A DNA stretch of 64,000 nucleotides from an uncultured Candidatus Saccharibacteria bacterium (GTDB lineage: Bacteria > Patescibacteriota > Minisyncoccia > Phycocordibacterales > WO2-35-19), in NCBI GenBank assembly GCA_964392285.1, contig CAYMOW010000002.1:1-64000 (forward strand), given 5' to 3'. Shown here in pieces: positions 23,195 to 58,765 of the stretch. Made by a program: the position numbers and the translations under genes. The number at the start of each line of letters is the position of its first letter. Within the stretch, counting starts at the first letter, position 1. The notes under the pieces were generated by a model. It did not search any database. It saw only the letters and a program-made list of their open reading frames with translations, and had not been told where the DNA came from.

Positions 23195-23242
23195 GGCTGA
23201 AATATAGCACAAATCGACCCAAAATGGAAATCCGGCACGAAA

Positions 23243-25105: not shown

Positions 25106-25120
25106 TGTAAATTTTAATAA

Positions 25121-25603
25121 TTATAATATTTTTCCAGACGCATATCCCAAACCAAGTACCATAACGAAAAAGAAAATTGCCACAAAAACAGCCAGCAAAA
25201 TAAGTGCAACAACCAAAGAAATTACGAAATTCTTTAAGGTAAATTTACCGTGCTTTAGAACTATGTAGCAATAAAAAACCAACACTGACCAACCTAAAAC
25301 TGATATCGGTATCAAATCAAACACCTTGTTTTCTATAACACTTTGCAGATTATAACCATTTGAAAAATAATTATGAGTCAGTTCTGTTGCAGACCAAAAT
25401 CCAAACCAAGCACAAACCACAAAAGTCACAAGAGATGTTAGATAGGCTAGGATTACCTGCCACCAAGAGATTGATAATTTTCTTTTCCATTTTCTAAATC
25501 CTAAGTATGCAAAAGGTAAAAAAATAAAAAATGCTGATAGCAAGAAAAATACCCACTCGATAACGAGTATCAATGTAGGCCCCGCCCTAAAATAGGTTTC
25601 CAT
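25121..25603 (-). CDS. hypothetical membrane protein (about 4 TM)
   Basis: Hydrophobic ORF, AT-rich, no recognisable domain. Confidence 0.45.
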   Translation of the reverse strand: METYFRAGPTLILVIEWVFFLLSAFFIFLPFAYLGFRKWKRKLSISWWQVILAYLTSLVTFVVCAWFGFWSATELTHNYFSNGYNLQSVIENKVFDLIPISVLGWSVLVFYCYIVLKHGKFTLKNFVISLVVALILLAVFVAIFFFVMVLGLGYASGKIL

Positions 25604-25666
25604 TTGAGGTTATACACTTATGGTAGCACAACGACTTGATTCGTTTTACAAGCTTATCCACATAAT

Positions 25667-26761
25667 TTATTCAGCACAGATAACATAATGCAGATATTCT
25701 GTCGTCTTGCTTGCTGTATAATTCCTGTTTTCTGATTTATCAGCCCTAAAACGACTATGCTCTTTTGTAAAACATCCATATTTACCCCGGAGACTCATTA
25801 TTTCTCTTATATCATCGGGGGTCATCAAACCTTCATTGTTATAACTCAAAAATATATATTTGACTTTGGCCTTCAATATCAAATCTTTAAACGATTTTCT
25901 GACCTGGTTTTTTGAACAATACAAAGATTTCTGATCAGTATAATCTCGTAGACCAGTCTTCCCATATATTTTAGGATTATCATACCTAGCAATTGTCTCT
26001 AAAATATGATAATTCGTTGCATATTGACGATGATTATATGGTGGGTCAAGATATAAAACATCTCCGTTAATTTTTTCGACGATTTTATTTATATCCATAT
26101 TGAAAATTTCGTGATCTTGTTCATTAACAATCAATTCTGCTGGTTTCAAGATCAGACTACTTTGAGCTGTCTTTTTTAGATTCTTCAGGAAAGCTCCGTA
26201 GACGGATGCTGTGTTCGCATATTTATCAATCGATTCGACTAAACTAGCGATCAAAAAATAATATTCATCATCAGAGATTAAATCTTTCTCTTTCCAATTT
26301 TCAATTTTTTGACGAATAGCGTCGCACCGCATTCCATTTTCATTTGAAAAATATTGTCTTGATTCTTCTTTGTCTTTGGTTTCTCCGAGACAATAATTTT
26401 TATAGATAAAGCCTTTTACACCCTCCAAATTTGATAGATATTCACAAACAAAATCTTTACGTTTTTCTGTGTCAATATTTTTTAGACCAGCAATTTCTTT
26501 TGTTAGTTTTATAAATTTTAATTCCTTATGATTCCCAACATAGTGCCTATTCAATACATAACTGTAATATTGAATATCGTTAGAAATTATTTTGTAACCT
26601 CTTTTCTTGAAATAACTACCGACAACTCCAGTTCCAGCAAATAAGTCACAAAAAACCTTGCAGTTTTTATCAACTACTTTATTAATTGATTCTTCCAAGA
26701 ATTCTAACAAAGATAGTTTACTGCCGATATAATTCATAAATTCATGATAACATACCCGCAA
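25667..26761 (-). CDS. Dam-family (alpha-class, D12) N6-adenine DNA methyltransferase
   Basis: N-terminal NYIGSKLSLLEFL and FCDLFAGTGVVG (motif I); C-terminal LYLDPPYN (motif IV DPPY). Confidence 0.8.
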   Translation of the reverse strand: MRVCYHEFMNYIGSKLSLLEFLEESINKVVDKNCKVFCDLFAGTGVVGSYFKKRGYKIISNDIQYYSYVLNRHYVGNHKELKFIKLTKEIAGLKNIDTEKRKDFVCEYLSNLEGVKGFIYKNYCLGETKDKEESRQYFSNENGMRCDAIRQKIENWKEKDLISDDEYYFLIASLVESIDKYANTASVYGAFLKNLKKTAQSSLILKPAELIVNEQDHEIFNMDINKIVEKINGDVLYLDPPYNHRQYATNYHILETIARYDNPKIYGKTGLRDYTDQKSLYCSKNQVRKSFKDLILKAKVKYIFLSYNNEGLMTPDDIREIMSLRGKYGCFTKEHSRFRADKSENRNYTASKTTEYLHYVICAE

Positions 26762-26799
26762 TAAAATCTATACGAAAACATAGGCTTTTGTGGTAGTAT

Positions 26800-27549
26800 T
26801 TGCCTATGTTAAAAAACGACTTAAATAATGAACGAATTGGCGTCTCTGCTGAAATTTCAATTGCAGATATTTTTGAAATTCCTATCAGTGACAACTATCG
26901 AAATCGCGGAGCACAAGATATTACAAACACCATCAAACCTATCATTGCCGATATCTTCAACTTAAATAATATTCCTCCACCAATCAAACATGTTGCGGAA
27001 AATCAAAATACTATAGATTTTATACTTGAAGGCAATAAAACTTTATCCGTAAAAACAAATAAACAAAAATTGGGCAAAGCTGCACCACAAAAAATTGGCC
27101 AGGCATCATCAAACACTTGGTTTGCGATTTTAGCAGAACGATTAGGTATAGCATATATACCGACAGCTTATCCTGAAAAAGTCAAACTTTTTAAAATAAT
27201 TGCACTAACAAGGATCGAGGAACTACTTTTTATTTACTGGGAATACATGTTCGATTGCGATTTTTTGATCCATATTTTCAATATCGTTGATTCTAATAAC
27301 AACCTTACTCGTGATCCGAAATACATAGTAACTAAGAAAACCAGTAGCCCTATTTGGGATCCTGCAAAAATTACATTTACAAGGCCAACTGTATCCGAGT
27401 GGAATGAGAGCAATACTGTAAAATACGAATACGATGGTGTGGCAATAGGTGAATTTCAAGTCCACAACAATAGGGACAATTTTAAATTTCGTTTCAATAT
27501 GGCCGGTATTTTCAAGTTAATGACAGAAGGTCGTCTCAGTTTTTCTTAA
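26800..27549 (+). CDS. putative type II restriction endonuclease (hypothetical, sits between two methyltransferases)
   Basis: 249-aa ORF with no recognisable family. It is divergent from the Dam-like MTase and convergent with the second MTase; AT-rich. Confidence 0.4.
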   Translation: MPMLKNDLNNERIGVSAEISIADIFEIPISDNYRNRGAQDITNTIKPIIADIFNLNNIPPPIKHVAENQNTIDFILEGNKTLSVKTNKQKLGKAAPQKIGQASSNTWFAILAERLGIAYIPTAYPEKVKLFKIIALTRIEELLFIYWEYMFDCDFLIHIFNIVDSNNNLTRDPKYIVTKKTSSPIWDPAKITFTRPTVSEWNESNTVKYEYDGVAIGEFQVHNNRDNFKFRFNMAGIFKLMTEGRLSFS

Positions 27550-28321
27550 AAACCATTATGTATTCGTGTTTGAATATATAATAATCACTTGATAACGCGC
27601 GGTATCTCCAAATTCCTTCTTTATTCTGTTTGCCACGATTACCAACCATATTCTTTATTATAATACTTTTCAGAATTAGACCTAGTTTTTGAGCCTCATT
27701 CATACAATAAAAACCCAATGGTACCCACTTCCCCATTTTATATGCATCACCAATAACAATCGCCAAATATCTACCATTTTCCAAAACATCTATTGTATTC
27801 TTTAAAACTTCAGCAAATTTTCCTAAAAACTCTTTCAAGGATTTTGCGTTTGATAAATCATCTTTTAAGTCACTAAACTTTATAATATCCGCATATGGTG
27901 GGTGCAATATGGCCATTTGCACATTTTTCTTTTTGTGTTTTTCTAAAATATCTTTTACTTTTTCAAAAGTTTGGATTTTTGTGCTGTCACCTATAATTAG
28001 CTCAGAAAAATTACCTTTCGCATCAATATTCTCACTGACATAATCAACGAGTTTTTTCTGTATATCGATCCCAATAAAATTCCTGTTTAGACTCTCTGCC
28101 TCATAAGCAGTGGTTCCACTTCCTAAAAATGGGTCCAGGATTGTTTCGTTCTTTTTTGTGTACCTAGATATTAACTGGTGAGGAATTTGTGGAACAAAAT
28201 TCCCATGGTAAAAACCGCTATGTTTTCCTGACTTGTCTCTTTCTGAAATAATCCAGAGACTATCCGTCCAAATTTCTGATTCTTTCCACTTACTTAAATC
28301 AAGATCATTAAAAATTGGCAT
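27536..28321 (-). CDS. DNA methyltransferase, N4/N6 amino-MTase (PF01555-like)
   Basis: HGNFVPQIPHQLISRY (motif X-like), ILDPFLGSGTT (motif I), ILHPPYADI (motif IV-like). The table ORF extends to 28441, but those 40 extra codons read through tRNA-Glu; ATG at 28321 (MPIFNDL) is used instead. Confidence 0.7.
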   Translation of the reverse strand: MPIFNDLDLSKWKESEIWTDSLWIISERDKSGKHSGFYHGNFVPQIPHQLISRYTKKNETILDPFLGSGTTAYEAESLNRNFIGIDIQKKLVDYVSENIDAKGNFSELIIGDSTKIQTFEKVKDILEKHKKKNVQMAILHPPYADIIKFSDLKDDLSNAKSLKEFLGKFAEVLKNTIDVLENGRYLAIVIGDAYKMGKWVPLGFYCMNEAQKLGLILKSIIIKNMVGNRGKQNKEGIWRYRALSSDYYIFKHEYIMVFKKN

Positions 28322-48054: not shown

Positions 48055-50396
48055 ATTTTTTTGGATTTTATTCGTAATGAATTCGCTACAACCGAGACAC
48101 TCGACATCGCCATGGCAAAGCCGGCAAAGATTGGGTTGAGTAGCCAGCCGAAAAAGGGATAAAAAGCTCCAGCCGCAAGCGGGATACCCACAACGTTATA
48201 AATAAAAGCCCAGAACAAATTTTGCCTGATACCGCGCATGGTCATCTTTGAGAGCCGGGTAGCTTTGACAAGTTTGGAGATGTCGCCATGAAGCAGAGTG
48301 ATCCCGGCCGATTCGATTGCCACATCAGTACCAGTCGCCATAGCAATACCGACATCGGCTTTGGCCAAAGCCGGAGCATCGTTCACCCCATCGCCAGCCA
48401 TCGCAACCACAAGACCTTCTCTTTGCAGAGCCTCAATCTTGCGTAGTTTGTCCTCGGGCAAGACATGAGCGACGACCTCATCGATACCGACCTCGTTTGC
48501 AATATAACGCGCGGTCTTCTCTTCATCACCAGTGAGCATTACAACTTTGATCCCGAGTTTGTGGAGGTCGGAAACAGCTTGCTTTGCTTCTGGCTTTACC
48601 TCGTCGGCAACCATCACCAAGGCTAACACTTTTTCTTTTGTAGCCAAGATAACCGGTGTTTTGCCCTGAGCGGTTAGCTCGTGCAGTTTGGTCTGTTCAA
48701 AATCGAGAGCGAGTTCGTCTACAAGTTTTGTATTGCCGGCAAAGTATTCGACTCCATCGATCAGCCCTTTGATACCCTTCCCTTGCAGATTTTGAAAATT
48801 GACCACTTCCGCAAGATCCAAATTTTTGGCTTCGGTCCTTAGAGGATCTGCGGTCCTTACAGGATCTACGACCCTTTCAGGATCTGCGACATAATTCAAG
48901 ATGGCGCGAGCGATTGGGTGCTCGGACTTTTTCTCCAGCGAAGCCAAGATTGAGATCACTTGCGAGTCGGTAAAGGTTGAAAAGTTTATGACATCGACGA
49001 GAGTTGGAAAACCTTTAGTCACAGTGCCGGTCTTATCGACAACTACTGTATTTACTTTGTGCAATTTCTCCAAAGTCGCCGCATCTTTGATGAGGATGCC
49101 TTCCTTGGCACCCTTGCCCACCCCGACGATTATAGCGGTCGGCGTAGCCAAACCCAGAGCGCAAGGACAAGCAATGACCAGGATACCCACAAATGAGACC
49201 AGACCAAAAGAGAGAGCTTCGGCAAAACCCAAATATTGCGAACCGACAAAGAGCCAGAGCCCCAAGGTAACAAAGGCGAGCACAAGCACAACCGGCACAA
49301 AAACACTGGAGATTTTGTCCGCAAGCGCTTGGATCGGCGCTTTGCTGCCTTGGGCCTCTCTTACCATTTTTACAATCTGAGCGAGCAGGGTTTCTGAGCC
49401 AACTTTGGTCGCTTTGAAAACAAAAGAGCCTGTCGTATTGATAGTCCCCGAAACAACGCTGTCACCGACCGATTTTTTCACCGGCATTGGCTCACCGGTC
49501 ACAAGCGATTCATCTACAAAAGAAACACCATTGGTTATCAGACCATCGACAGGAATCTTTGAACCGGGTTTGACCACAATCAAATCGCCATGCTTTACAT
49601 CATTCACAGAAATTTCGATCTCTTGACCGTCGCGTATCACCAAAGCAGTTTTGGCCTGAAGATTGAGAAGCTTTTCGATAGCATCGCCGGTCTTTACCTT
49701 TGAACGAGCTTCGAGATACTTGCCGAGAGTAATAAAAGTGATGACAACAATTGTGACATCATAATATTGGTGATCGACATTTACAAAATTCTCAAGCAAG
49801 GTCTCGAAGGCTGAGATCACAAAGCTATACAGATAGGCTGCGCTTGTACCGATACCAATCAGGGTATCCATGTTGGCCTTACCAAAACGCAGAAAACGAT
49901 AGACACCAGAAAGATACGGTCGGCCAATAACAAACAAAATATAAGTCGCAAACACCGGCAATAAGTGATGCACAAAATCATCGACTACCGGACTCATTTC
50001 GGCTGCCAACTCATATTGCATCAAAACATCCCAGATCATTATGGCGATACTAAAGATCGCAATCGGCACCGCCGAGAACAACCCTTTCTTCATACTTTGT
50101 AATTCGGCAAGCTTCTCCACCTTTGACTCACTGAGTCCGAGATGCTTCGCGTGCTCGTCTGCGCTCATACCCATTGCCTCGGCTGTGTCTTCAACAAGAG
50201 AGTAGCCCAACGGTTCGATTTGTTTTGACAGATCTTTGGCGTGCAACTTCTGCTCATCAAAACTTATTTTGGCCGTTTCCGTACCAAAATTTACTTCAAC
50301 ACTATTTACGCCACTTTCTTTTTTGAGCGTCTTTTCGATAATATTGGCGCAAGACGCACAATGCATTCCTTTTATCTTAAAAATTTCTTTTCTCAT
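48051..50396 (-). CDS. copA: copper-translocating P1B-type ATPase CopA
   Basis: N-terminal [19 protein letters not shown] motif ([12 protein letters not shown]), DKTGTVT, and [10 protein letters not shown]. Confidence 0.95.
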
Positions 50397-50443
50397 ATCT
50401 TATATTTTTTATTTTTCGTAGTTTTCGTATAATTTTAGTCTAT

Positions 50444-50707
50444 TTATTTTCTCTTGAGTCGATAAACCTCCAGCACTTCTTTGACCGCCTTGCTTTCGCT
50501 ACCCTTCTTCATCTGATGTACGACGCAAGTATTGAGATGGTTCTCAAGTAAAGCGTCCTCAACGCTCGAAAGCGCCCGTTTGACCGCCGAAGTCTGGGTA
50601 ATAACATCGATACAATAGACATCTCGGTCGATCATTTCTTGCAAACCTCTGACCTGACCTTCAATAATTTTGAGCCTCCTAATTATACGTGATTTGGGTG
50701 TAATCAT
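50444..50707 (-). CDS. csoR: CsoR-family copper-sensing repressor
   Basis: LKRLKIIEGQVRGLQEMIDRDVYCIDVITQTSAVKRALSSVEDALLENHL: the RcnR/CsoR fold with Cys and His ligands. Confidence 0.85.
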   Translation of the reverse strand: MITPKSRIIRRLKIIEGQVRGLQEMIDRDVYCIDVITQTSAVKRALSSVEDALLENHLNTCVVHQMKKGSESKAVKEVLEVYRLKRK

Positions 50708-50845
50708 ATTTTTGAAAATTGAAAATTATAAATTGATAATTCTATACTATACCCCCCTAGGGTATTAGTCAAGTCAAACCAAAACCACTTCTGGGGATAA
50801 TCCAAAAGTGGTTTTGGCCGGTTTCGGCTTTGGTCGAACCAGAGA

Positions 50846-51481
50846 TTAATTGGCTTTAGACAGAGCTTCTCTCAAAATCAGACGAAACTCATCAACCGAG
50901 CTGGGATTTTTTATTTGTTCACCATTCAGAAAGAAGCTCGGCGTGCCCTGTAAACCAGATTTGAGCGAGTGAACTCTCTGCGCCGAAACAAAATTCTTGA
51001 CTTCCTTGCTACGCCAATCGAGATTGAATTTTTCTACATCGAGATTCAAAAGTTTGGCATAGTTTTCAAAAAGCGGTGCAATATCGGAAACATTTGACCA
51101 CTCGTTCTGTTTTTCAAACAAAAGATCGTGCATCTCCCAGAACTTACCTTGGCGACCGGCAGCTTCCGCTACCCGAGCAGCAAACTCGGCGTTGGGATGG
51201 ATAGCATTGAGCGGAAAATGTCTGTAGACAAAAGCCACCTCATTGCCAAATTCGGCCGAGAGTTGTCGTAGGACTGGATAATAAGCCCGACAAGCCGGAC
51301 ATTGAAAGTCGCTGTATTCCATAAGCACTACCTTAGCCTCCTTGTTGCCTTTTATATTATCGAGTGGATGCAAAACTCCCTTTTCAAAAGGTGGCTCAAT
51401 CTTGGGTCCACCACCAAAACTCGCAAGCAAAACGATACCAACCACAACCAACACACCAACTATCCAATAAGTTTTTTTCAT
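50846..51481 (-). CDS. DsbA-family thiol:disulfide oxidoreductase, membrane anchored
   Basis: N-terminal TM, and KVVLMEYSDFQCPACRAYYP (the CPxC active site). Confidence 0.8.
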   Translation of the reverse strand: MKKTYWIVGVLVVVGIVLLASFGGGPKIEPPFEKGVLHPLDNIKGNKEAKVVLMEYSDFQCPACRAYYPVLRQLSAEFGNEVAFVYRHFPLNAIHPNAEFAARVAEAAGRQGKFWEMHDLLFEKQNEWSNVSDIAPLFENYAKLLNLDVEKFNLDWRSKEVKNFVSAQRVHSLKSGLQGTPSFFLNGEQIKNPSSVDEFRLILREALSKAN

Positions 51482-51552
51482 TTTATTTTCGGTTGATTTT
51501 CTATAATTCTCCTATTTTACCACTTCCCCAAAACTTTGCTAGCCAAAAAATA

Positions 51553-51999
51553 TCAAAAATAAATAAGATACCAGACTAGGAGTGCCAAGGCGCCCCACCA
51601 ACCAAGGTCAGAAAAAATAAGACTGACTATTATTTTGTTCTGCCAAGAAGCGGGCAAAAGCTCCTCCGCTCGACCCTCCCTCTCTTTTTTCAAAAGATAT
51701 GGGCTGACGCGAAAAGATAAAAACAAGCCATTGAGTATGAGCACGATAGCAATCAGAGCCAAGTACATTGGCAGACCAACAAAAGGTTCGCTCCTAAAAA
51801 ATATACCGCCCCCGATAATCGCAAGAAAAATACCCGCCCAAATCATCGGCTTAGTGACTTTGTGGGTGCGCGTGGTAGCCTCGGTCCAGTAATTTGATTT
51901 TCGCCCTAAAAATCCATGAATATCAATCACCGTCACAGCTCCAAGTCCAACCACAAACCCAGCGACAAGCAAGAACAATCCGATGAAATCAAGAATCAT
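51553..51999 (-). CDS. hypothetical membrane protein (4 TM, no cysteines; not DsbB/VKOR)
   Basis: Hydrophobic ORF; Cys-free, so unlikely to be the DsbA redox partner. Confidence 0.45.
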   Translation of the reverse strand: MILDFIGLFLLVAGFVVGLGAVTVIDIHGFLGRKSNYWTEATTRTHKVTKPMIWAGIFLAIIGGGIFFRSEPFVGLPMYLALIAIVLILNGLFLSFRVSPYLLKKEREGRAEELLPASWQNKIIVSLIFSDLGWWGALALLVWYLIYF

Positions 52000-52050
52000 A
52001 AACTTATAATAACACCAAACTAGTTAGTAAAAAATTCTCAAACTCACAAA

Positions 52051-52467
52051 CTAAGAGTTGAGGTAAGTAATGGTCAATTGCAAAACAGTGGCAAAAGAGA
52101 CCCACAAGAGATATGGAATGTTCGCATAAACTACCCACCTCAGATCACTAGAACCTTGAGGCACAAGTCGCCATATTAGGACCATCCCCCAGACCAAAGT
52201 AGCCAGAACCAGCAAAATATCGATCGAGGCCAAAAGATTGTTTTGCAGACCAAATTGAATCGGTGTAAAAGCAAAATTAAAAAACAGATTCAAAACAAAA
52301 GGCAACGCCACAAATCGCGGAATCTTGCGCTTCAAGGCAGAGTAAAAGACTTTACCAAAAGAAATGGCAATGATGGCATAAAGTACCGTCCACACCGGAC
52401 CAAAGACCCAACTCGGCGGCGCCCAAGATGGTTTGATCAAATCTATATACTTAGTTGTTTCGTTCAT
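52051..52467 (-). CDS. tspO: TspO/MBR-family tryptophan-rich sensory protein
   Basis: PSWAPPSWVFGPVWTVLYAIIAISFG: the canonical TspO N-terminus and a 5-TM layout. Confidence 0.85.
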   Translation of the reverse strand: MNETTKYIDLIKPSWAPPSWVFGPVWTVLYAIIAISFGKVFYSALKRKIPRFVALPFVLNLFFNFAFTPIQFGLQNNLLASIDILLVLATLVWGMVLIWRLVPQGSSDLRWVVYANIPYLLWVSFATVLQLTITYLNS

Positions 52468-52515
52468 GTTATTTTATAACTTACATAAATTTGATAGTAT
52501 TGTGATGATTTGAGT

Positions 52516-53346
52516 TTACGCCGTGTTGAGAGATACCGCAACTTTTGCTTTCAAATATTCGCCGACTATAACATCGATTCCTACTGGATTTTTATACCAA
52601 GAATCTCGTTTATATTGATCTCCCGTACCGCAATTTACACGAATCAACCTAGCATCATCGGGAAGATATTTTTTGAAATGAGCCCAACCCCTTCTTTGGG
52701 TATAAGGAGAATTCACCAAAACGATTGAATTGTAAGAAATTCCTTTTTCATCAAGAATATTTAACGAACTCCTTACATTATCAGGGACAGTAATTGATTT
52801 GTCTTCAATAATAATTGCTTTTTCTGGCACACCTTTATCCATGGCCATTTGAGCATAAACTTCTGCCTCGGTCGGAGCAGAGCCCTCTCCATAATACGGA
52901 CCTCGACCACTGACGACAATAGTTTGTGATATCTCTTGTTTATAAAGCTCAATAGCTTTTTCAATTCTAAATGGAGTTTTGGCACCAAAAACAAATATCA
53001 AATCCGATTTTTCTGGCACATCTTCCTCGGCAAGATAATCGTAAACACTGTTAAGTACTTCTACGTCTTCGGGTAACAATTCTTTGTTAAGAATCTTGCC
53101 TTTTAACTGCCCTACAATACCTTTTCCTTTTTCTAACAAATTTTCATTACCTACGTCTTCTTTTGAATATGTCGTGGCCAAAATTTGAGCATCCAAACCA
53201 AAATGTTCAGCCAGTTTAATCAATGGAGAAAAATCAAAATAATGAAGTTCTTCCTTTCCTTTAGGAAAACCTCTTTTTGCTTCCGCATCGAGGATAGTCT
53301 TGAGTTCTTCTGAGTTTGGCAGTTGACTAAAATTATCTCTTTTCAT
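52516..53346 (-). CDS. DUF218/YdcF-ElyC-like domain protein
   Basis: LIFVFGAK...IVVSGRG...EAEVYAQMAMDKGVPEKAIIIEDKSITVPDNVRSS...LVNSPYTQRR. Confidence 0.6.
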   Translation of the reverse strand: MKRDNFSQLPNSEELKTILDAEAKRGFPKGKEELHYFDFSPLIKLAEHFGLDAQILATTYSKEDVGNENLLEKGKGIVGQLKGKILNKELLPEDVEVLNSVYDYLAEEDVPEKSDLIFVFGAKTPFRIEKAIELYKQEISQTIVVSGRGPYYGEGSAPTEAEVYAQMAMDKGVPEKAIIIEDKSITVPDNVRSSLNILDEKGISYNSIVLVNSPYTQRRGWAHFKKYLPDDARLIRVNCGTGDQYKRDSWYKNPVGIDVIVGEYLKAKVAVSLNTA

Positions 53347-53410
53347 CTCTTACATTATAGACTAATATTATACGATTAAATTTTGCTAGTTGTTTGAGAG
53401 AGTATACAGA

Positions 53411-54229
53411 CTATTTTAGACCAAGTACCTTTTCAACAAAAGGCTTAAATTTATTGAACTCTGCAGCAACATCTGGGCCTATCTCCACTATCGACTCTTC
53501 ATATTTTATTTCTTTTTTTAAACTTCTTTCTACATAATCGTCGTGGATTTCCCCCAACCATGCAGATAGTTTAAAAATAGAATAAAACAGCCAATGTAAG
53601 TTTCCGCCACAATTCTCAGCAGCAGGGACTTGCATAAGATTCGATAATAATCGAAATCTTTTTCTTAATTTATGAAATTGTTCTATTGGAAGATTGTTTG
53701 CCTGTACTAGTGTTGCAATGTGATCTAAAATACTTTTCGCATATTTTTTGAATTCTTCTGTATCTATAAAATTTACTGAAAAATCTAGGTCGCTCAAACT
53801 ATCTAAAATACCTTCCCTAATTTCTGGTTGAGATGATATCCAGTAACTGTCATTGTACTCACCCAAAAGAAACAAAAAGTGATTTAATTTTTCTCCACAT
53901 TTATGGCTGGTGTCGGTAAATCTATATAGAGCTTTCAGGATCAGCCCATAACGCCTAACCTGTTTTAAATAAGAAAAGCTTTCTTCATTTGCTTCAAGTT
54001 TAATTTCTCGTACAAACCTCTCCTTATCAAAAATAAATTCAAATGCTTTTCTTGCTTCTTCAAAAATATGTTCACGATATTGTTTATCTTCAAAAATATT
54101 TGAAAAATCAACTTCATCAGGATTCAATTCTGGTCTTGTTCTAATATCAAAAAAACGAGAGACCAGGATTGGTTCAGTCTGTATGTTCTCTAAATTATTT
54201 TTCATATTTGATATATTATCAGGATTCAA
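53411..54229 (-). CDS. hypothetical protein (272 aa), AT-rich
   Basis: ORF only; I recognise no family. Confidence 0.4.
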   Translation of the reverse strand: MNPDNISNMKNNLENIQTEPILVSRFFDIRTRPELNPDEVDFSNIFEDKQYREHIFEEARKAFEFIFDKERFVREIKLEANEESFSYLKQVRRYGLILKALYRFTDTSHKCGEKLNHFLFLLGEYNDSYWISSQPEIREGILDSLSDLDFSVNFIDTEEFKKYAKSILDHIATLVQANNLPIEQFHKLRKRFRLLSNLMQVPAAENCGGNLHWLFYSIFKLSAWLGEIHDDYVERSLKKEIKYEESIVEIGPDVAAEFNKFKPFVEKVLGLK

Positions 54230-54417
54230 AATTGTTAGATAGGTATCAATTTTACGTTGTAAATACTACTAAAGTCTAGGGTTATCCGTCCAAAGGAGCA
54301 CCTAAACAGAACCGAGATCAATATAACAGAAAACTCACTGAGCGACGAGTTCCTGTAATACAGACCAACTTGTGTATTGAAATCATGGACTGGCCCAATC
54401 TCCAAATTTATGACTAC

Positions 54418-54452
54418 CAAAACCGCTCCGCCCTTCAGAGCGGTTTTGATTT
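54418..54452 (+). terminator. intrinsic terminator closing a roughly 180-nt leader upstream of the 54518 gene (possible attenuator/riboswitch)
   Basis: AAAACCGCTC-CGCCCTTCA-GAGCGGTTTT followed by GATTTGTTCT. The upstream 54270..54417 contains CTAGGGTTATCCG...GAACCGAGA. Confidence 0.45.
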
Positions 54453-54517
54453 GTTCTAAAAGATAGCTCGTTCTTCAATCGATGGACAAATTAAAAAGGC
54501 GCGAATAGAATAGAAAC

Positions 54518-54991
54518 ATGTATAAAAAAATTCCTAATTTTATTTTATATGGAGCCACGGCGGTCTTGGGTCTCATTGTCCTCGCCTTATGTATTTTTGC
54601 CTTGCCTTCGATGTGGCGAAATGGCCCACTTGAATTTCCCGAGGCTAGCTTGGCAGTGCGACTCATCGTAATCGGTTTGTATGCGACCACTATTCCCTTT
54701 TTTATCGGTCTTTGGCATGTCTTCAAATTCCTCCGCTATGTGAGCAAAGATATGGGCTTTTCTGACCTAGCGATAAAAGCCTTACACAATATAAAATACT
54801 GTGCCCTCATAATAGGAGTTATGTGTATGATTGGCGTGCCACTTTTGCTCCCAATCGCCGAGGCCGATGATGCTCCCGGGCTTCTTGTAGTCGGATTTGC
54901 AATCGCTTGCGCACCTTTCGTCATTGCTTCATTTATCGAAATTCTACAAAGGCTTTTGAGAATTGGGATGAAAAAATCTGGGATAAAATAA
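54518..54991 (+). CDS. small membrane protein (4 TM), DUF2975-like
   Basis: MYKKIPNFILYGATAVLGLIVLALCIFALP..., a hydrophobic 157-aa ORF preceded by the leader/terminator. Confidence 0.55.
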   Translation: MYKKIPNFILYGATAVLGLIVLALCIFALPSMWRNGPLEFPEASLAVRLIVIGLYATTIPFFIGLWHVFKFLRYVSKDMGFSDLAIKALHNIKYCALIIGVMCMIGVPLLLPIAEADDAPGLLVVGFAIACAPFVIASFIEILQRLLRIGMKKSGIK

Positions 54992-55056
54992 AAAAGCGCC
55001 CGCAAAGGTATGTAAACCCCTACTGGCGCAAACCCCACGGATTCAAATCGCACGGT

Positions 55057-55794
55057 TCACCCCTTATAGAGAATGAACCATTGGTGCTCAAACGGGAACC
55101 TGATCACTCCCCGCGTGCACTCTTTGCCAAAGTATTCCGCCAGATAGGCGGGCACCGCTGGCGCAGAGATAAATCTCTCGTAGCGGTCCTTTTCTGCGTT
55201 ACTGTAAACAAAAGCTAGGGCTTCCATGACTTCGTTGATGCTTTCTGAGGTTACAAGAGTCGGAACCATATGCTCTTGAATTACACAGAAATTGGTCCGC
55301 AAGAACCACCTCAATCCATCAAGCCCCTCCCGATTGACAGGAAACCGCTCGAGCGAACTCCAATCAAGCAAATCGCTCCAATGCCCTTGTTCATCATTGA
55401 ATGTAACGACGACGAGATGACCACCCTTCGCGACCATCCGATGAGCCTCCCGGACGAAGTGCTCTCGCGTCGCCGTGATGTTGGGCAAAGAGTGCGAAAT
55501 CAACACCAGGTCGAACTGCTCGCTTGGGGAAGTACCGACAACCTCAGGAAAAAAGCCTTCCACAACATTGATACCTTGCCCCGTGAGGCGCGATACAAAA
55601 TTCTTGCTCGCCTCGATTGCCCTATAGTGAGGCACCAAATTAGAAAGTGGTAGAGCAAGACTTCCATCCCCCGCCCCGATGTCCAGCAAAGACGCCGGCT
55701 TGAACGTGCTAATAATTTGCGTGAGGTACCGGATGAAAACCGCCTTCTCGTCGGTACACGCAAGAAAACGACCAAAACTCTCTTCATAGCTCAT
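55057..55794 (-). CDS. class I SAM-dependent methyltransferase
   Basis: LLDIGAGDGSLA (motif I) and the acidic loop DLVLISHSL. Start moved to ATG 55794 (MSYEESF), which has a CTAGGAG RBS. Confidence 0.7.
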   Translation of the reverse strand: MSYEESFGRFLACTDEKAVFIRYLTQIISTFKPASLLDIGAGDGSLALPLSNLVPHYRAIEASKNFVSRLTGQGINVVEGFFPEVVGTSPSEQFDLVLISHSLPNITATREHFVREAHRMVAKGGHLVVVTFNDEQGHWSDLLDWSSLERFPVNREGLDGLRWFLRTNFCVIQEHMVPTLVTSESINEVMEALAFVYSNAEKDRYERFISAPAVPAYLAEYFGKECTRGVIRFPFEHQWFILYKG

Positions 55795-55836
55795 AAGTAC
55801 TCCTAGCAAGCACCCTAGCATTTCTGAAATTTATTT

Positions 55837-55989
55837 TCAATTCGATGAAATAAAAAAATATATACCTATAATAACACCAAAAGAAATCGCGATGATGGCA
55901 TAAAGTACTGTCCACACCGGACCAAAGATCCAACTCGGCGGCGCCCAATCCGGTCTAATCAAATTCAAATACCTTGTTGCTTCGTTCAT
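55837..55989 (-). pseudogene. tspO: truncated duplicate of the tspO 5' end (51 codons)
   Basis: Encodes MNEATRYLNLIRPDWAPPSWIFGPVWTVLYAIIAISFG... then diverges and stops. The DNA is about 88% identical to 52351..52470. Confidence 0.7.
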
Positions 55990-56018
55990 ATTGTTTTGTA
56001 TTAATTTGAAATTTTAAA

Positions 56019-56330
56019 TCACTTTTTAGGTTTACCTAGGCCCGTGGTAGTGACGAATTGTTCCATATAATTCAAGTAATCCTGACTTCCAACTTGTATT
56101 TTCAAATCATCAAAAGCCTCTTTCAGAATTTGCGAAGCGTCTTCCATATTCAAGGCTGGCTCGTAAGAATCATCTTCTGCCCCATCACCTTCTTCATCTT
56201 TTGACTTACCAAACAAATTCTGCCGCATTCTCTTTTCGAGATATGCTCGCGCATCCCTTTCCGCTCGTTCGTTTATCTCCCTCAACCGGTCCGCACCACC
56301 TTCCAAACTTGGTTTAATAGGTTCTTCCAT
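56019..56330 (-). CDS. hypothetical acidic protein (103 aa)
   Basis: ORF; charged and helical; no family recognised. Confidence 0.4.
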   Translation of the reverse strand: MEEPIKPSLEGGADRLREINERAERDARAYLEKRMRQNLFGKSKDEEGDGAEDDSYEPALNMEDASQILKEAFDDLKIQVGSQDYLNYMEQFVTTTGLGKPKK

Positions 56331-56407
56331 ATTTCTTATATTAGGATTAAATTTTGCTGGCCATCTGGTACGAAGTCGGAACAGTTCTATGTATTTAATT
56401 CAAGTTT

Positions 56408-57493
56408 TTACCTGCCTATTTGTTCTCGCAACATTTTAATAAGTTCGGTTACAAGTTGTGAGTCATATTTGCCACTAACTTCTTTTGTTCTAGGTTCAGA
56501 AAATAGTATATCTAAACCTTTATCAAGAATTTTCTCCCCTCTCTCTTTGTGGGTAGTAATAAGGTTGTTCATAGTATTCATTGATGAATACTTAAACATA
56601 TAATTATTATAAAGTCGTTTGTGAAATAAAAACTGATTGGCAGCAAAAAGGGTTAGGTACGCGGGCACAATTAAACTAGTTATACGCAATATAGCCATAC
56701 CAACTTTTATTTCCTGAGTTTTTGTTGCTGCTTTAATAATGAATTCGTATGTTACCCATCCGGTCATAAAAGCAAAAATAAACGAGGCTAGAAGCCATAG
56801 CCAACTACCACCCAAATCATATTCAGAAGGAAATTTCTTCATTTTTTCTTTTATAGATTCAGGAGCATTATTTTTGCCTATCCAAGCACGAATTGTTTTA
56901 TGTTCACGAGCCATATCATGGAATGCTTCAGCTTGTTCCTCTATTGTTTTTCCGTTAATGTCGCGCCGAATATGTAACCATTTCTCTGCTCCACCGATTG
57001 CTTCTTGTATGTCAGTAGATTTAGTAGCAAGTGAATTAGCAACACTTTCTGCCTCTGTAAAACGATTTATTTTTTGAACAAGAATGCTTTCAGCAATTTT
57101 TGCAGCATTTAAATCTACATATATACCAGTGTTCTTAATCGAGGAGTTAAGTGAGTGCAATTGCGATACCGCATTATGATGTTGGGTGGTAATTTGATCA
57201 TAACCAAGAGTGGGTAAACCATGATTGTTATAAGAATTTATAAATCCAGATAACTGATTGTCGATGTTTCTAATATCAAGCGGTGAAGCTGAATCAAGAA
57301 CAGAAATGTTAGTTTTGATATCTTGCAAAAGATTAACCACAATTTGTACCAAGTGTTGGACATCTTCGGGAGTTAAATTATTCCAATTTTGTATACTAGG
57401 ATTTTTGGAGTACAACTTACTAAGATCAAATTTTAAAATCTGATCAATTTTTTCCAATATCTGTGCTTTTACTTCTGAGGTTGCCATCTGCAA
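56408..57493 (-). CDS. hypothetical protein with a soluble N-terminal domain and a C-terminal 2-TM module (SLATT-like effector architecture?)
   Basis: About 230-aa soluble region, then WLWLLASFIFAFMTGWVTYEFII and MAILRITSLIVPAYLTLFAANQFLF, plus a roughly 80-aa tail; AT-rich. Confidence 0.5.
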   Translation of the reverse strand: MQMATSEVKAQILEKIDQILKFDLSKLYSKNPSIQNWNNLTPEDVQHLVQIVVNLLQDIKTNISVLDSASPLDIRNIDNQLSGFINSYNNHGLPTLGYDQITTQHHNAVSQLHSLNSSIKNTGIYVDLNAAKIAESILVQKINRFTEAESVANSLATKSTDIQEAIGGAEKWLHIRRDINGKTIEEQAEAFHDMAREHKTIRAWIGKNNAPESIKEKMKKFPSEYDLGGSWLWLLASFIFAFMTGWVTYEFIIKAATKTQEIKVGMAILRITSLIVPAYLTLFAANQFLFHKRLYNNYMFKYSSMNTMNNLITTHKERGEKILDKGLDILFSEPRTKEVSGKYDSQLVTELIKMLREQIGR

Positions 57494-57956
57494 TTATAGT
57501 TTCTATTATTCTTAATTTGTTTTTAAAATTATCTCCAACCTCTACAACTTCTAGTAGTAAATTCGTATCTTGAAACAACTGTTTTTTAAAGTGGTCGGAA
57601 CTAATTCGTTTGGGGTCAAGGTGCGATTTGCCATTAAGTTCTATAGCAAAGATGGGTTTAAAATACTCGTTGCACACAAGAAAGTCAACATGCCGAGACC
57701 AGATTTTATTCCGCCATTTATAATCTGAATTTGTTGGTTCGATAAAATCTATAATTCTTGTTTTTGGGAAAATATGATATTCAGGCGGCAAAGACTTTTT
57801 GAGTTCAAAAAATAGAGCTTCCTCACTCTTATTGAAAAAATTTTGTCTTAGTTTGTAAGGTAATTTTTCTTCACCACTTTCAAACTTTAAGCCTTTAAAA
57901 ATAGCCAGCAAAATTACAAGAACAATTATTGCTATAGCAAAATAAATCATAACCAA
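57444..57956 (-). CDS. membrane-anchored DUF2726-like (restriction-endonuclease-fold/NERD-like) protein
   Basis: N-terminal TM, and HVDFLVCN...PIFAIELNGKSH (a D...E-x-K-like motif). Confidence 0.5.
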   Translation of the reverse strand: MVMIYFAIAIIVLVILLAIFKGLKFESGEEKLPYKLRQNFFNKSEEALFFELKKSLPPEYHIFPKTRIIDFIEPTNSDYKWRNKIWSRHVDFLVCNEYFKPIFAIELNGKSHLDPKRISSDHFKKQLFQDTNLLLEVVEVGDNFKNKLRIIETIIADGNLRSKSTDIGKN

Positions 57957-57968
57957 ATTATATCACTT

Positions 57969-58211
57969 CTATTCTTGTGTATTTTCTCCCGGCACAGGTA
58001 TCTTGTTTCTCCTAAAGTATTCCTCGTCAAAATTTTCGTCTGGATACCTAACACCTTCTTTTCTGGTGTTTCTCTCAATCCTTTCCAAAATCCTTATCGC
58101 TTTATTTACTTTCCAATACCAAGTCAAAATTTCTCTTATTAAAAAGAAGAATATTATTCCTCCGATAAGATATACGAGAGAGTCGCTAGATAAAAGATTA
58201 TTTAAATTCAT
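57969..58211 (-). CDS. hypothetical small membrane protein (80 aa)
   Basis: ORF with a single TM. Confidence 0.35.
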   Translation of the reverse strand: MNLNNLLSSDSLVYLIGGIIFFFLIREILTWYWKVNKAIRILERIERNTRKEGVRYPDENFDEEYFRRNKIPVPGENTQE

Positions 58212-58261
58212 ATTTCTTCAGTTGTGGTTTAAATATATCATAAAAACAGAAAACCCCCACA

Positions 58262-58531
58262 TCAAACAGATCTAATAAGGCTTAATTTCTTTTCCCTCTT
58301 CCATCCTTTGATTTCTGTTTCTCTTCTTCTTGCTTCAATAAGAGTTTTAAATCCTTCAGAGTATCTCAGGATAACCGGTCTACGAATTTTGGTGTAATGA
58401 GCGCCAGATTTGGAGTTGTTGTGTTGATCCAATCTTCGTTCTAAATCATTTGTGCAACCGACGTAAAAGGATCCATCTGCACATTCTAAGATGTAGGTGA
58501 AGTATTGCATGAGATTTGAAGATACTTCCAC
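58262..58531 (-). CDS. GIY-YIG nuclease-domain protein (UPF0213-like)
   Basis: YFTYILECADGSFYVGCTNDLERRLDQHN...TLIEARRRETEIKGWKREKK. Confidence 0.75.
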   Translation of the reverse strand: MEVSSNLMQYFTYILECADGSFYVGCTNDLERRLDQHNNSKSGAHYTKIRRPVILRYSEGFKTLIEARRRETEIKGWKREKKLSLIRSV

Positions 58532-58612
58532 TTCGCTTTGCTCAGTGTCAGTACCTTCGTCTCAGTTTATTTCCTCGTGCCGAAGGCCCTGAGGAGCTAT
58601 TGCGACGAAGGG

Positions 58613-58683
58613 CTGCGGGACTTGGGCTCGAACCAAGATTAACGGATTCAGAGTCCGCTGTCCTACCATTAGACGATCCCGCA
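58613..58683 (-). tRNA. tRNA-Gln (CTG)
   Basis: Reverse complement TGCGGGATCGTCTAATGGTAGGACAGCGGA-CTCTGAA-TCCGTTAATCTTGGTTCGAGCCCAAGTCCCGCA. Confidence 0.75.
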
Positions 58684-58765
58684 ATGTTCTGTATAAAAAT
58701 ACCCTGAAATCAGATAAAATTCAACGTCTGGACGATTTTTTCAACACACAGGTTGAGCCTGTGTG

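What the first reader, a model, noticed from the sequence alone, without database searches (positions are those of the whole stretch)
52051..55989. A 3.4-kb segment bracketed by a full tspO and a 51-codon tspO 5' remnant
The sequence at 55861..55990 is about 88% identical to the tspO 5' end (52351..52470) and encodes MNEATRYLNLIRPDWAPPSWIFGPVWTVLYAIIAISFG before diverging. The DNA in between carries a DUF218/YdcF-like gene, a 272-aa hypothetical, a leader-plus-terminator-controlled small membrane protein, and a SAM MTase, and it is mostly AT-rich. This looks like an insertion into, or partial duplication of, tspO: either a segmental duplication followed by replacement, or a cassette that targeted tspO. 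The remnant marks a recombination junction and could be used to date or define the event.
Basis: seen in the sequence. Interest (0 to 1): 0.6.

Follow-up and report, generated by a model that had tools for sequence, protein, structure and literature searches.

The report
Decayed second tspO copy, recombination mosaic
The short tspO-like stretch is real: it is the 163-base wreck of a second copy of a two-gene module (tspO plus its usual membrane-protein neighbour), cut down by two small deletions in a much-recombined region of an uncultured Patescibacteria genome, which makes it an ordinary gene relic and not a mobile cassette that targeted tspO.

Summary
Window 55876-56000 repeats 52354-52478 (125 nt, 86%; coding part 99/114 nt), and Pfam recognises both the 138-aa TspO and the 50-aa ORF.

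The next 38-44 nt (55838-55881) match 51976-52019, which is the end of the tspO-mem148 spacer plus the first 8 codons of the downstream 148-aa membrane gene. The relic aligns without gaps to the intact locus once 340 bp are removed between two ACCAAA hexamers. Its other end joins the methyltransferase upstream region at CGAATTG. So it is a second tspO-mem148 module reduced by two microhomology deletions.

The 3.4 kb between the copies is not one cassette. Relatives show the methyltransferase, the CHAD-like gene with its upstream spacer, and DUF218 each present or absent independently, around a DUF2975 gene that is always there. GC ranges from 0.32 to 0.51. No recombinase gene and no terminal inverted repeats were found.

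The locus lies downstream of tRNA-Gln in a strain-variable zone. It carries fresh recombination patches, including 38 consecutive foreign-type sites at the methyltransferase 5' end.

Three independent assemblies at 97-100% identity share the same relic junctions. More distant relatives lack the relic.

Whether the second copy was imported or duplicated in place is unresolved; I favour import. Interest is low.

The parts
52051..52467 (-). Intact tspO (138 aa)
   Evidence: ORF. Pfam TspO_MBR E 4.9e-28, covering model positions 22-144 of 145. 62-76% aa identity to tspO of about 470 Patescibacteria-type MAG loci.
51553..51999 (-). mem148: a 148-aa membrane protein of no known family and the usual downstream partner of tspO. 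This is the resident copy.
   Evidence: 93% aa and 86.8% nt identity to the syntenic gene of L012/L084. Found near tspO in 11/80 genome loci and 21/56 metagenome loci. No Pfam, NCBIfam or PDB match.
52000..52050 (-). 51-nt tspO-mem148 spacer, specific to this lineage. In the A/B-type relatives the two genes overlap.
   Evidence: Three-way alignment. Its last 20 nt recur in the relic.
55876..56000 (-). Relic part A: 11 nt of tspO upstream sequence plus tspO codons 1-38
   Evidence: 125 nt, 86% identical to 52354-52478. 99/114 coding nt. 13 codons differ: 6 silently and 7 by conservative replacements. dN/dS about 0.32.
55838..55881 (-). Relic part B: last 20 nt of the tspO-mem148 spacer plus mem148 codons 1-8, with the start codon changed from ATG to ATA
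   Evidence: 44 nt, 84% identical to 51976-52019 (D3). 0 of 5000 shuffles reach the score. Ungapped alignment of 55838-56000 to the intact locus minus 52020-52359.
55876..55881 (.). Junction 1: the hexamer ACCAAA. It occurs in the intact locus at both 52014-52019 and 52354-52359. The 340 bp between them (tspO codons 39-138, the stop codon and 31 nt of spacer) are missing from the relic.
   Evidence: Read directly from the sequence and the alignment.
55838..55844 (.). Junction 2: CGAATTG in gene sense. It is shared between mem148 codons 6-8 (CGGATTG in the intact copy) and the methyltransferase upstream region as it appears in relative L087 (CCGAATTGAAAAT).
   Evidence: Sequences printed and alignment. 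L087's homology to the window begins at 55844.
55837..55989 (-). 50-aa ORF formed by the relic: TspO helix 1, then read-through of the spacer and the mem148 start, ending at a TGA that lies inside junction 2
   Evidence: Pfam fragment match. Called as a gene in L081 but not in L082/L083.
55057..55821 (-). Class I SAM-dependent methyltransferase. Its start codon is 16 nt after the relic ORF's stop. Positions 55675-55805 form a recombination patch.
   Evidence: Pfam Methyltransf_23/11. 38 consecutive diagnostic sites identical to L087 where L082/L083 differ by 30%.
54518..54991 (+). DUF2975 membrane protein on the opposite strand. It is the one gene of the interval that is present in every relative.
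   Evidence: Pfam DUF2975 E 7.5e-22. 86% nt identity to L084/L012 and 98.1% to L087.
54230..54517 (.). Non-coding spacer with an 11-bp hairpin plus T-run at 54421-54451. Only 54479-54517 is shared with relatives.
   Evidence: No Rfam family. The hairpin is single-copy and occurs only in D-type loci.
53411..54229 (-). 272-aa protein, a distant CHAD-domain relative. Present only in the D-type arrangement. GC 0.316.
   Evidence: 153 relatives among the representative proteins. 11 of 48 of them match Pfam CHAD. Absent from L087, L084 and L012. GC.
52516..53346 (-). DUF218 (YdcF-like) protein. Present in the C- and D-type arrangements. GC 0.368.
   Evidence: Pfam DUF218 E 2.7e-20. 77% nt identity to L087. 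Absent from L084/L012.
56019..56330 (-). hyp103: a 103-aa protein found only in this clade. It forms the upstream border of the relic. The relic's homology to tspO upstream sequence starts between 56001 and 56011.
   Evidence: Only two protein clusters exist in 5.8 billion proteins. L084 homology ends at 56012, 7 nt after the stop codon. Only 14 codons remain in L012.
56356..58684 (-). Strain-variable AT-rich island (a 361-aa hypothetical, DUF2726, an 80-aa hypothetical, GIY-YIG) and tRNA-Gln (58610-58684)
   Evidence: tRNA. In L084 the tRNA-Gln sits directly before hyp103. L082/L083 carry different genes in the island. GC 0.342.

Best explanation
**What it is (sequence facts plus a strong inference).** The stretch 55838-56000 is the dead remainder of a second tspO-mem148 gene module. 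That module once lay between the hyp103 gene and the methyltransferase gene.

**How it got its shape (inferred).** Two microhomology-mediated deletions cut it down:
- The first was 340 bp, between two ACCAAA hexamers. It removed tspO codons 39-138 and most of the spacer.
- The second was of unknown length. It joined mem148 codon 8 to the methyltransferase upstream region at CGAATTG.

The intact module 3.5 kb away is the resident one. It sits in the ancestral position next to dsbA, csoR and the copper ATPase.

**What lies between (shown by comparison).** The DNA between the two copies is not a cassette. It is a patchwork of blocks that come and go independently among relatives: the methyltransferase, the DUF2975 core, the CHAD-like gene with its spacer, and DUF218. 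The whole lies in a plasticity zone downstream of tRNA-Gln, where lineages more than 20% diverged still exchange patches of about 130-300 bp by homologous recombination.

**Origin of the second module (inferred, about 50%).** The two copies are closer to each other than either is to the nearest relatives' tspO, and they share the lineage-specific 51-nt spacer. So the second module arose after the split from those relatives. I think it most likely came in on DNA from a sister lineage, together with or next to the methyltransferase. Homology in the DUF2975/methyltransferase region would have anchored one end and an illegitimate joint after hyp103 the other. Being redundant, it then decayed.

**Present role (inferred).** Probably none. 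At most it is a spacer through which hyp103 and the methyltransferase are co-transcribed.
For: **Anatomy.**
- 55838-56000 aligns without gaps to the intact locus once 52020-52359 is removed. The two repeats were found independently by the repeat finder (D1 and D3).
- D3 is the best match in the whole window and was unmatched in 5000 shuffles.
- The ACCAAA hexamers and CGAATTG can be read at the junctions.

**Module.** tspO and mem148 are neighbours in 11/80 and 21/56 unrelated loci.

**Real, not an assembly artefact.** The same junctions occur in Logan assemblies of three different sequencing runs, at 99.99%, 97.8% and about 97% identity.

**Not one unit.**
- L084-86 have tRNA-Gln, hyp103, DUF2975, tspO, mem148 with nothing else.
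- L012 is the same, but with hyp103 cut to 14 codons.
- L087 has methyltransferase, DUF2975, DUF218 without the 272-aa gene and without the relic.
- GC is 0.316 to 0.511 across the interval.

**Recombination.**
- The window has 0 mismatches to L082/L083 over hyp103, the relic, the spacer, the 272-aa gene and DUF218, but 30/100 mismatches in 55700-55799. There it is identical to L087.
- 38 consecutive L087-type sites at 55805-55675, and 13 more in DUF2975.
- DUF2975 is 98.1% identical to L087, against 82.7% for the methyltransferase and 77.1% for DUF218.

**Timing.**
- Full copy versus relic 99/114. Full versus L012 84/114. Relic versus L012 86/114. In the variable first 42 nt: 31, 19 and 23 matches.
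- The spacer is shared by both window copies and absent in L012/L084.

**Selection before decay.** 6 of the 13 differing codons are silent, and dN/dS is about 0.32.

**No mobility genes.**

**Precedent for the mechanism.** One homologous anchor plus an illegitimate joint is an established way for bacteria to take up foreign DNA (PMC3240628 abstract; PMC5361080).
Against: - No relative with an intact second module between hyp103 and the methyltransferase was found, so both deletions are inferred from the surviving copy.
- The microhomologies are read from the intact paralogue, not from the lost parent.
- The comparison that places the duplication after the split rests on 114 nt plus one structural character.
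- Import and in-genome duplication cannot be separated with the present sampling. The lineage has only 8 short related contigs.
- The L087 contig is 1.9 kb. It shows a tRNA-Gln 5' end in inverted orientation directly upstream of the methyltransferase, which no simple scenario of mine predicts.
- The relic's GC (0.38) and the methyltransferase's GC (0.51) do not mark either one clearly as foreign.
Confidence: 0.65

Rival explanations
1. In-genome segmental duplication. The tspO-mem148 module was copied within this lineage's own chromosome. Both copies were kept and diverged by about 13% under purifying selection. The upstream copy was later lost through the same two deletions.
For: - The two copies are each other's closest known relatives, and both carry the lineage-specific spacer.
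- They are in direct orientation, 3.5 kb apart.
- dN/dS of about 0.32 fits a period when both were functional.
Against: - None of 136 other tspO or mem148 loci carries two similar tspO copies within the flanks examined, so long co-residence would be unusual.
- The relic sits where the nearest collinear relatives (L084-86) have nothing between hyp103 and DUF2975.
- The locus demonstrably takes up DNA from diverged lineages, which explains the 13% divergence without a long two-copy phase.
Confidence: 0.27
2. One reading: a 3.4-kb cassette that targeted or inserted into tspO, for example by Campbell-type integration of a circle carrying a tspO 5' fragment. That would leave one truncated and one complete copy.
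For: - A truncated 5' copy followed by foreign-looking DNA and then a complete copy is the topology a single crossover with a 5' fragment would give.
- Part of the interval is AT-rich.
Against: - The relic also contains the spacer end and the mem148 start, joined by an internal deletion. It therefore derives from a whole module.
- The copies are only 86% identical, with identical runs of at most about 19 nt.
- The interval's blocks vary independently in relatives, and DUF2975 in the middle is core.
- There is no recombinase gene, no terminal inverted repeats and no 3' tspO fragment.
Confidence: 0.04
3. The relic is not dead. The 50-aa ORF (TspO helix 1 plus a hydrophobic tail) is kept either as a small membrane protein or as an upstream ORF that couples translation or transcription into the methyltransferase gene 16 nt downstream.
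For: - The ORF is intact, with its ATG, in all four D-type sequences.
- It fills the whole hyp103-methyltransferase gap, so the methyltransferase has no room for a promoter of its own.
- A second, independent tspO 5' relic of similar size exists in L136.
Against: - The four sequences are nearly identical throughout the region, with 0-1 differences in the relic and 0 in several flanking kilobases. Their agreement therefore says nothing about selection.
- Gene callers skipped the ORF in two of three assemblies.
- The tail is simply read-through of the spacer and of a start-less mem148 fragment.
- L087 expresses its methyltransferase without any relic.
Confidence: 0.03
4. Chance similarity, conserved-motif convergence, or an assembly artefact.
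For: The 72-nt core is 80-92% identical even between unrelated genomes.
Against: - Similarity also covers the variable N-terminal codons, the untranslated bases and a second collinear segment from the next gene.
- The same structure occurs in assemblies from three sequencing runs.
Confidence: 0.01

Closest known systems
Gene relics (pseudogene fragments) left by deletional decay of a redundant copy in bacterial genomes
   Same: - A redundant paralogue or xenologue is reduced by small deletions with few-base microhomology at the joints.
- The surviving piece keeps a start codon and an open frame by accident.
- The neighbouring relative L012 shows the same process acting on hyp103, which is cut to 14 codons.
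- That deletion bias is general in bacteria is my own knowledge, not something tested here.
   Different: Nothing essential. The unusual detail is that one 163-bp relic preserves pieces of two adjacent genes, which allows both junctions to be reconstructed.
Homology-facilitated illegitimate recombination and module displacement (PMC3240628; V. cholerae T6SS effector-immunity arrays, PMC5361080)
   Same: - Incoming DNA is anchored by homology on one side and joined illegitimately on the other.
- The old and new copies then lie side by side, and fragments of the displaced gene persist.
- Here the DUF2975/methyltransferase region shows fresh homologous exchange, and the other borders are microhomology joints.
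   Different: - In the displacement model the incoming module survives and the resident one is orphaned. Here synteny suggests that the resident module survived and the extra one decayed.
- No transformation or donor has been observed. The mechanism is inferred.
tRNA-adjacent genomic islands / plasticity zones
   Same: - The locus lies downstream of tRNA-Gln.
- Its content differs between strains that are 97% identical.
- It has AT-rich blocks about 2 sd below the window mean.
- A relative carries restriction-modification-like genes at the same place.
   Different: No integrase, no att-like direct repeat of the tRNA 3' end and no mobility gene were found. The variation looks like piecemeal recombination and deletion, not a single integrative element.
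Campbell-type integration or cassette insertion at a target gene
   Same: A truncated 5' copy and a complete copy in direct orientation bracket unrelated DNA.
   Different: - The copies are 14% diverged.
- The relic contains downstream-gene sequence.
- The bracketed DNA is composite.
- There is no recombinase.

Membership tests
TspO/MBR family (Pfam PF03073) | Match to the family profile above the gathering score over essentially the full five-helix domain | tested here: met
   ORF 52051..52467: 98.2 bits against a cut-off of 24, model positions 22-144 of 145.
TspO/MBR family (Pfam PF03073): the 50-aa ORF as a functional member | Full five-helix domain present | tested here: not met
   ORF 55837..55989 matches only model positions 22-57 of 145, which is helix 1. 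No further tspO-like sequence occurs in the window.
Mobile cassette or insertion element that targets tspO | The target gene is split into complementary, non-overlapping 5' and 3' parts, or there is a short target-site duplication | tested here: not met
   The intact gene contains the whole of the relic's tspO part. No 3' fragment exists.
Mobile cassette or insertion element that targets tspO | Carries a recombinase, transposase or integrase, or has terminal inverted repeats | tested here: not met
   - The four genes are DUF218, CHAD-like, DUF2975 and a SAM methyltransferase.
- PADLOC and PHROGs give no mobility hit.
- No inverted repeats at the borders.
Mobile cassette or insertion element that targets tspO | The bracketed DNA behaves as one unit: present or absent as a whole in relatives | tested here: not met
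   DUF2975 is present in all four arrangement types. The methyltransferase is in C and D, DUF218 in C and D, and the 272-aa gene with its spacer in D only.
Segmental duplication of the tspO-mem148 module (in-genome or imported) | The second copy includes flanking non-coding sequence and neighbouring-gene sequence collinear with the first copy | tested here: met
   11 nt upstream, 114 nt of tspO, 20 nt of spacer and 24 nt of mem148, collinear once a 340-bp gap is allowed for.
Segmental duplication of the tspO-mem148 module (in-genome or imported) | The copies are closer to each other than to orthologues of the nearest lineages | tested here: met
   99/114 against 84/114 and 86/114. No closer match among 80 genome loci. 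The comparison rests on short sequence.
Microhomology-mediated (illegitimate) deletion | A short identical sequence at both deletion endpoints, with one copy retained at the joint | tested here: met
   - ACCAAA at 52014-19 and 52354-59, with one copy at 55876-81.
- CGAATTG shared by the mem148 start and the L087 methyltransferase upstream region, with one copy at 55838-44.
- The endpoints are read from the paralogue and a relative, not from the lost parent.
tRNA-linked integrative genomic island | An integrase gene and a direct repeat of the tRNA 3' end at the far border | tested here: not met
   No integrase in 51.5-58.7 kb. No repeat of the tRNA-Gln sequence was reported among the repeat families listed for 50000-58500; that search region stops short of the tRNA at 58610-58684, and no search aimed at the tRNA 3' end was run.
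Riboswitch or attenuator leader of the DUF2975 gene | A known RNA family, or a terminator placed between the promoter and the start codon | tested here: not met
   - No Rfam match at gathering score. Best E-value 1.2.
- The hairpin at 54421-54451 lies upstream of the conserved promoter-like site at 54483-54511.
- Transcription itself was not measured.

The most novel reading that the evidence does not exclude
tspO, together with its partner mem148, may be a recurrent target of replacement in Patescibacteria. Two unrelated lineages keep a 5' relic of about 40-50 codons beside a complete tspO next to mem148: this window's clade, and metagenome contig L136, where the complete copy is a distant 168-aa type. 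If this turnover is driven by selection, for example because TspO is a surface-exposed receptor in a conflict with phage or host, or if the helix-1 mini-ORF is retained for a function such as driving expression of the downstream gene, the relic would be more than debris.
Probability: 0.06. Interest if true: 0.5.

Novelty: new member of a known kind. Interest (0 to 1): 0.2.

Why it matters
Mostly as a clean, base-resolved example.
- One 163-bp relic records two deletion junctions.
- Together with eight related contigs, it shows how a small streamlined Patescibacteria genome gains DNA by recombination with diverged relatives and then sheds the redundant part.
- It warns annotators that the 50-aa 'TspO' gene call is a fragment.
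- It points to a conserved, uncharacterised tspO-mem148 gene pair that may help in working out what bacterial TspO does.

It opens no new class of element or mechanism.

Tried and rejected
- **Exact-sequence look-up of the window's TspO:** not on record.
- **Search for an intact parent of the relic.**
  - The 50-aa ORF found only itself and P0019. P0019 is a tspO split by a frameshift in an unrelated, frameshift-rich JGI contig, L088. The candidate list held only 2 proteins, so this is not an exhaustive negative.
- **JGI metagenome scan with mem148:** 56 loci, best 83% aa identity, none from this clade.
- **GTDB genome scan with TspO:** 80 loci. Only L012 is syntenic. None holds the methyltransferase, hyp103, DUF218 or the 272-aa gene near tspO.
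- **A sharp recombination breakpoint between tspO (74% to L084) and mem148 (87%):** rejected. tspO identity alternates between 62-65% in loops and 88% in helices, which means fast-evolving loops and not a replaced allele.
- **An ancient two-module ancestor from which the relatives lost the second copy:** disfavoured, because the two window copies are much closer to each other than to L012/L084.
- **A riboswitch or leader upstream of DUF2975:** no Rfam family. The hairpin is single-copy and lies upstream of the promoter-like site.
- **The 272-aa protein as a hidden recombinase:** rejected. Its relatives match the CHAD domain.
- **PDB sequence searches for the 272-aa protein and mem148:** nothing.
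- **PADLOC and PHROGs on ten genes of the region:** only generic methyltransferase and GIY-YIG matches.
- **Literature search for TspO in Patescibacteria:** nothing relevant.

Full report
**1. The observation**

ORF listing and direct reading show a 138-aa ORF at 52051..52467 on the minus strand and a 50-aa ORF at 55837..55989 on the minus strand. The 50-aa ORF begins MNEATRYLNLIRPDWAPPSWIFGPVWTVLYAIIAISFG.
- Pfam TspO_MBR matches the first ORF over the whole domain (E 4.9e-28). It matches the second over model positions 22-57 only (E 6.3e-11).
- The repeat finder reports the direct repeat 52354-52478 / 55876-56000: 125 nt, 86%, no gaps (alignment).
- The coding part is 99/114 identical.

**2.

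The same repeat search lists a second family, 51976-52019 / 55838-55881 (44 nt, 84%). It abuts the first repeat in the relic but lies 340 bp away from it in the intact locus.

Those 44 nt are the last 20 nt of the tspO-mem148 spacer plus the first 8 codons of the next gene. That gene is a 148-aa membrane protein, 51553..51999 on the minus strand, called mem148 here.

When 52020-52359 is removed from the intact locus, the product aligns without a gap to 55838-56000.
- The hexamer ACCAAA stands at both edges of the missing 340 bp (52014-19 and 52354-59) and once at the joint (55876-81).
- The 38 nt outside the overlap match 31/38. That is the best match anywhere in the window, and none of 5000 shuffles reached it; the best shuffle scored 26.
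- In the relic the mem148 start codon reads ATA.
- The 50-aa ORF is TspO helix 1 followed by read-through of the spacer and the mem148 fragment.

No other tspO or mem148 fragment exists in the window.

**3. Organism and relatives**

A scan of species-representative genomes with TspO returned about 470 relatives, mostly Patescibacteria/Paceibacteria-type MAGs, at no more than 76% aa identity.

One of them, L012, is syntenic.

Protein searches with hyp103 and the methyltransferase found only this clade. Context look-ups gave seven more contigs.

Written in the sense of the window's minus strand, four arrangements exist:

| Type | Members | Gene order |
|---|---|---|
| D | window; L081 99.99%; L082 97.8%; L083 about 97% | tRNA-Gln, variable island, hyp103, relic, methyltransferase, DUF2975 (opposite strand), spacer with hairpin, 272-aa gene, DUF218, tspO, mem148, dsbA |
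| A | L084-86 | tRNA-Gln, hyp103, DUF2975, tspO, mem148, DUF1761, PspC, dsbA |
| B | L012 | as A, but hyp103 is cut to 14 codons and restriction-modification-like genes replace the tRNA side |
| C | L087, 1.9 kb | an inverted tRNA-Gln 5' end, methyltransferase, DUF2975, DUF218, with no relic and no 272-aa gene |

The interval between the two tspO copies is therefore made of at least three blocks with separate histories, arranged around a core gene, DUF2975.

Composition agrees:

| Segment | GC |
|---|---|
| 272-aa gene | 0.316 |
| DUF218 | 0.368 |
| DUF2975 | 0.430 |
| methyltransferase | 0.511 |
| whole window | 0.444, sd 0.051 |

**4. The relic's borders**

*Upstream.* L084's homology with the window ends 7 nt after the hyp103 stop codon, at 56012. 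Similarity to the intact tspO's upstream bases begins by 56000.

*Downstream.* L087's homology to the methyltransferase upstream region starts at 55844 and includes CCGAATTGAAAAT. The intact mem148 reads CATCGGATTG, and the relic reads CATCGAATTGAAAAT.

The second joint therefore also sits on a 4-7-nt microhomology. Both joints look like illegitimate, slippage-type deletions. This is an inference, because the undeleted parent has not been found.

**5. Is it real?**

The same 163 nt, with the same joints, occur in Logan assemblies of three different runs. L082 has one substitution.

**6. Recombination at the locus**
- The window and L082/L083 have no mismatch across hyp103, the relic, the spacer, the 272-aa gene and DUF218. 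They differ at 30 of 100 positions in 55700-55799. There the window is identical to L087, although L087 differs by 16-30% in the rest of the methyltransferase gene.
- Diagnostic sites give a run of 38 L087-type positions (55805-55675). Next come about 145 L082-type positions, interrupted by four single L087-type sites, and then 13 L087-type positions inside DUF2975.
- DUF2975 is 98.1% identical between the window and L087, while the flanking methyltransferase is 82.7% and DUF218 is 77.1%.

Lineages that are more than 20% diverged are therefore exchanging short patches here, right beside the relic.

**7. Timing and origin**
- Over codons 1-38 the two window copies share 99/114 nt. Each shares only 84-86/114 with L012. 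In the variable first 42 nt the counts are 31 against 19 and 23.
- Both window copies carry the 51-nt spacer. A/B-type genomes lack it, and tspO and mem148 overlap there.
- No locus among the 80 has a closer match to either copy.

The second module therefore arose after the split from the A/B lineage, and before the radiation of the D strains.

Six of the 13 differing codons are silent and the replacements are conservative (dN/dS about 0.32, a tiny sample). Most of the 13% divergence thus accrued while both genes were under constraint.

That could have happened in two genomes (import) or in one (duplication with long co-residence). I favour import, at roughly 50% against 27%, for three reasons:
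- None of 136 other loci holds two similar copies.
- The collinear A-type relatives have nothing at the relic's position.
- The locus is demonstrably open to foreign alleles.

The known mechanism that fits is homology-facilitated illegitimate recombination: one homologous anchor and one illegitimate joint (PMC3240628 abstract; applied to module displacement in PMC5361080). Neither a donor nor an intermediate has been seen.

**8. What the interval's genes are**
- DUF218 (E 2.7e-20), DUF2975 (E 7.5e-22) and a class I SAM methyltransferase.
- The 272-aa protein has no direct Pfam hit. It has 153 relatives among the representative proteins, and 11 of the 48 aligned match the CHAD domain.
- None is a recombinase. 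PADLOC and PHROGs add nothing.

The hairpin at 54421-54451 is strong but single-copy and has no Rfam family. It lies upstream of the promoter-like site 54483-54511, which sits in the 39 nt that relatives share. It is therefore not an attenuator of the DUF2975 gene, and its role is unexplained.

**9. Comparison with known things, and verdict**

This is a gene relic produced by deletional decay of a redundant module inside a tRNA-adjacent plasticity zone that evolves by recombination.
- It is not a member of any mobile-element class. The defining features (split target, recombinase, terminal repeats, unit behaviour) were tested and not met.
- A second, independent tspO 5' relic lies beside a complete but distant TspO and a mem148 homologue in metagenome contig L136. 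This hints that tspO turnover recurs. With one extra case it is only a lead.

The finding is real and more precisely defined than before, but it is ordinary. Interest 0.2.

Noticed in passing
window 55675-55805 (5' end of the methyltransferase gene), and 54649-54946 in DUF2975: Recombination patches. There are 38 consecutive diagnostic sites where the window is identical to the otherwise 17-23% diverged relative L087 and 30% different from its own 97-100% identical strains L082/L083. A second run of 13 such sites lies in DUF2975.
   Followed up: yes
window 51553-51999 (-), with homologues in L012, L016, L036, L042, L053, L076, L089-L144: mem148 is a 148-aa membrane protein with no Pfam, NCBIfam or PDB match. 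It lies next to or near tspO in 11/80 genome loci and 21/56 metagenome loci, in either order and with TspO types as distant as 30% identity. This is a conserved, uncharacterised gene pair.
   Followed up: partly
L136 335-526 (+), 2041-2547 (+), 2787-3233 (+): A second, independent tspO 5' relic: a 63-aa ORF matching Pfam TspO_MBR positions 21-63 of 145. It lies 1.5 kb upstream of a complete but distant 168-aa TspO that directly precedes a mem148 homologue.
   Followed up: partly
window 53411-54229 (-): The 272-aa 'hypothetical' belongs to a family of about 150 representative proteins, some of which match the CHAD (conserved histidine alpha-helical) domain. R92, G123, D127 and H186 are invariant in the alignment. 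The gene and the 250 nt upstream of it occur only in the D-type arrangement and have the lowest GC of the interval, 0.316.
   Followed up: partly
window 54236-54460, hairpin 54421-54451: A strong 11-bp hairpin with flanking A- and T-runs sits between two divergent genes. It lies upstream of the DUF2975 promoter-like site, is single-copy and has no Rfam family. The 225-nt fold has a z-score of -2.4. It could end a small plus-strand transcript or insulate the promoter. Unexplained.
   Followed up: partly
window 56356-58684; L082 1-2475; L083 1-1984; L012 1-5283: The stretch between tRNA-Gln and hyp103 is an AT-rich island (GC 0.342) whose genes differ even between strains 97% identical. The window has a 361-aa hypothetical and DUF2726. 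L082/L083 have 191-, 77- and 201-aa genes. L084 has nothing there, and L012 has a restriction-modification-like cluster.
   Followed up: partly
L012 5322-5366: In this relative, hyp103 is reduced to its promoter region and 14 codons (MEKSFGSNLGGTVF) abutting the 3' end of DUF2975. This is another deletion relic at the same locus.
   Followed up: yes
L087 1-77: Directly upstream of the methyltransferase, this relative carries the 5' part of a tRNA-Gln and its upstream region in inverted orientation relative to the window. This suggests an inversion with one breakpoint within about 12 nt of the relic's downstream junction. The contig is too short to test that.
   Followed up: partly
window 58262-58531 (-); L006, L009, L011, L038, L040 and others: A small stand-alone GIY-YIG protein (89 aa) sits next to tRNA-Gln. 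Homologues lie within a few kb of tspO, sometimes immediately downstream, in 9 of 80 genome loci.
   Followed up: no
window 23200-27800: Another long AT-rich stretch (GC 0.30-0.36 in 800-nt windows), the lowest in the window. It was not examined.
   Followed up: no
L088 8001-8406 and 8572-9824: An unrelated JGI contig has tspO split into 63-aa and 80-aa ORFs, and a neighbouring HI0933-like flavoprotein gene split into three. The cause is probably frameshift errors or pseudogenes. A DUF2975 gene again lies 2 kb from tspO.
   Followed up: no
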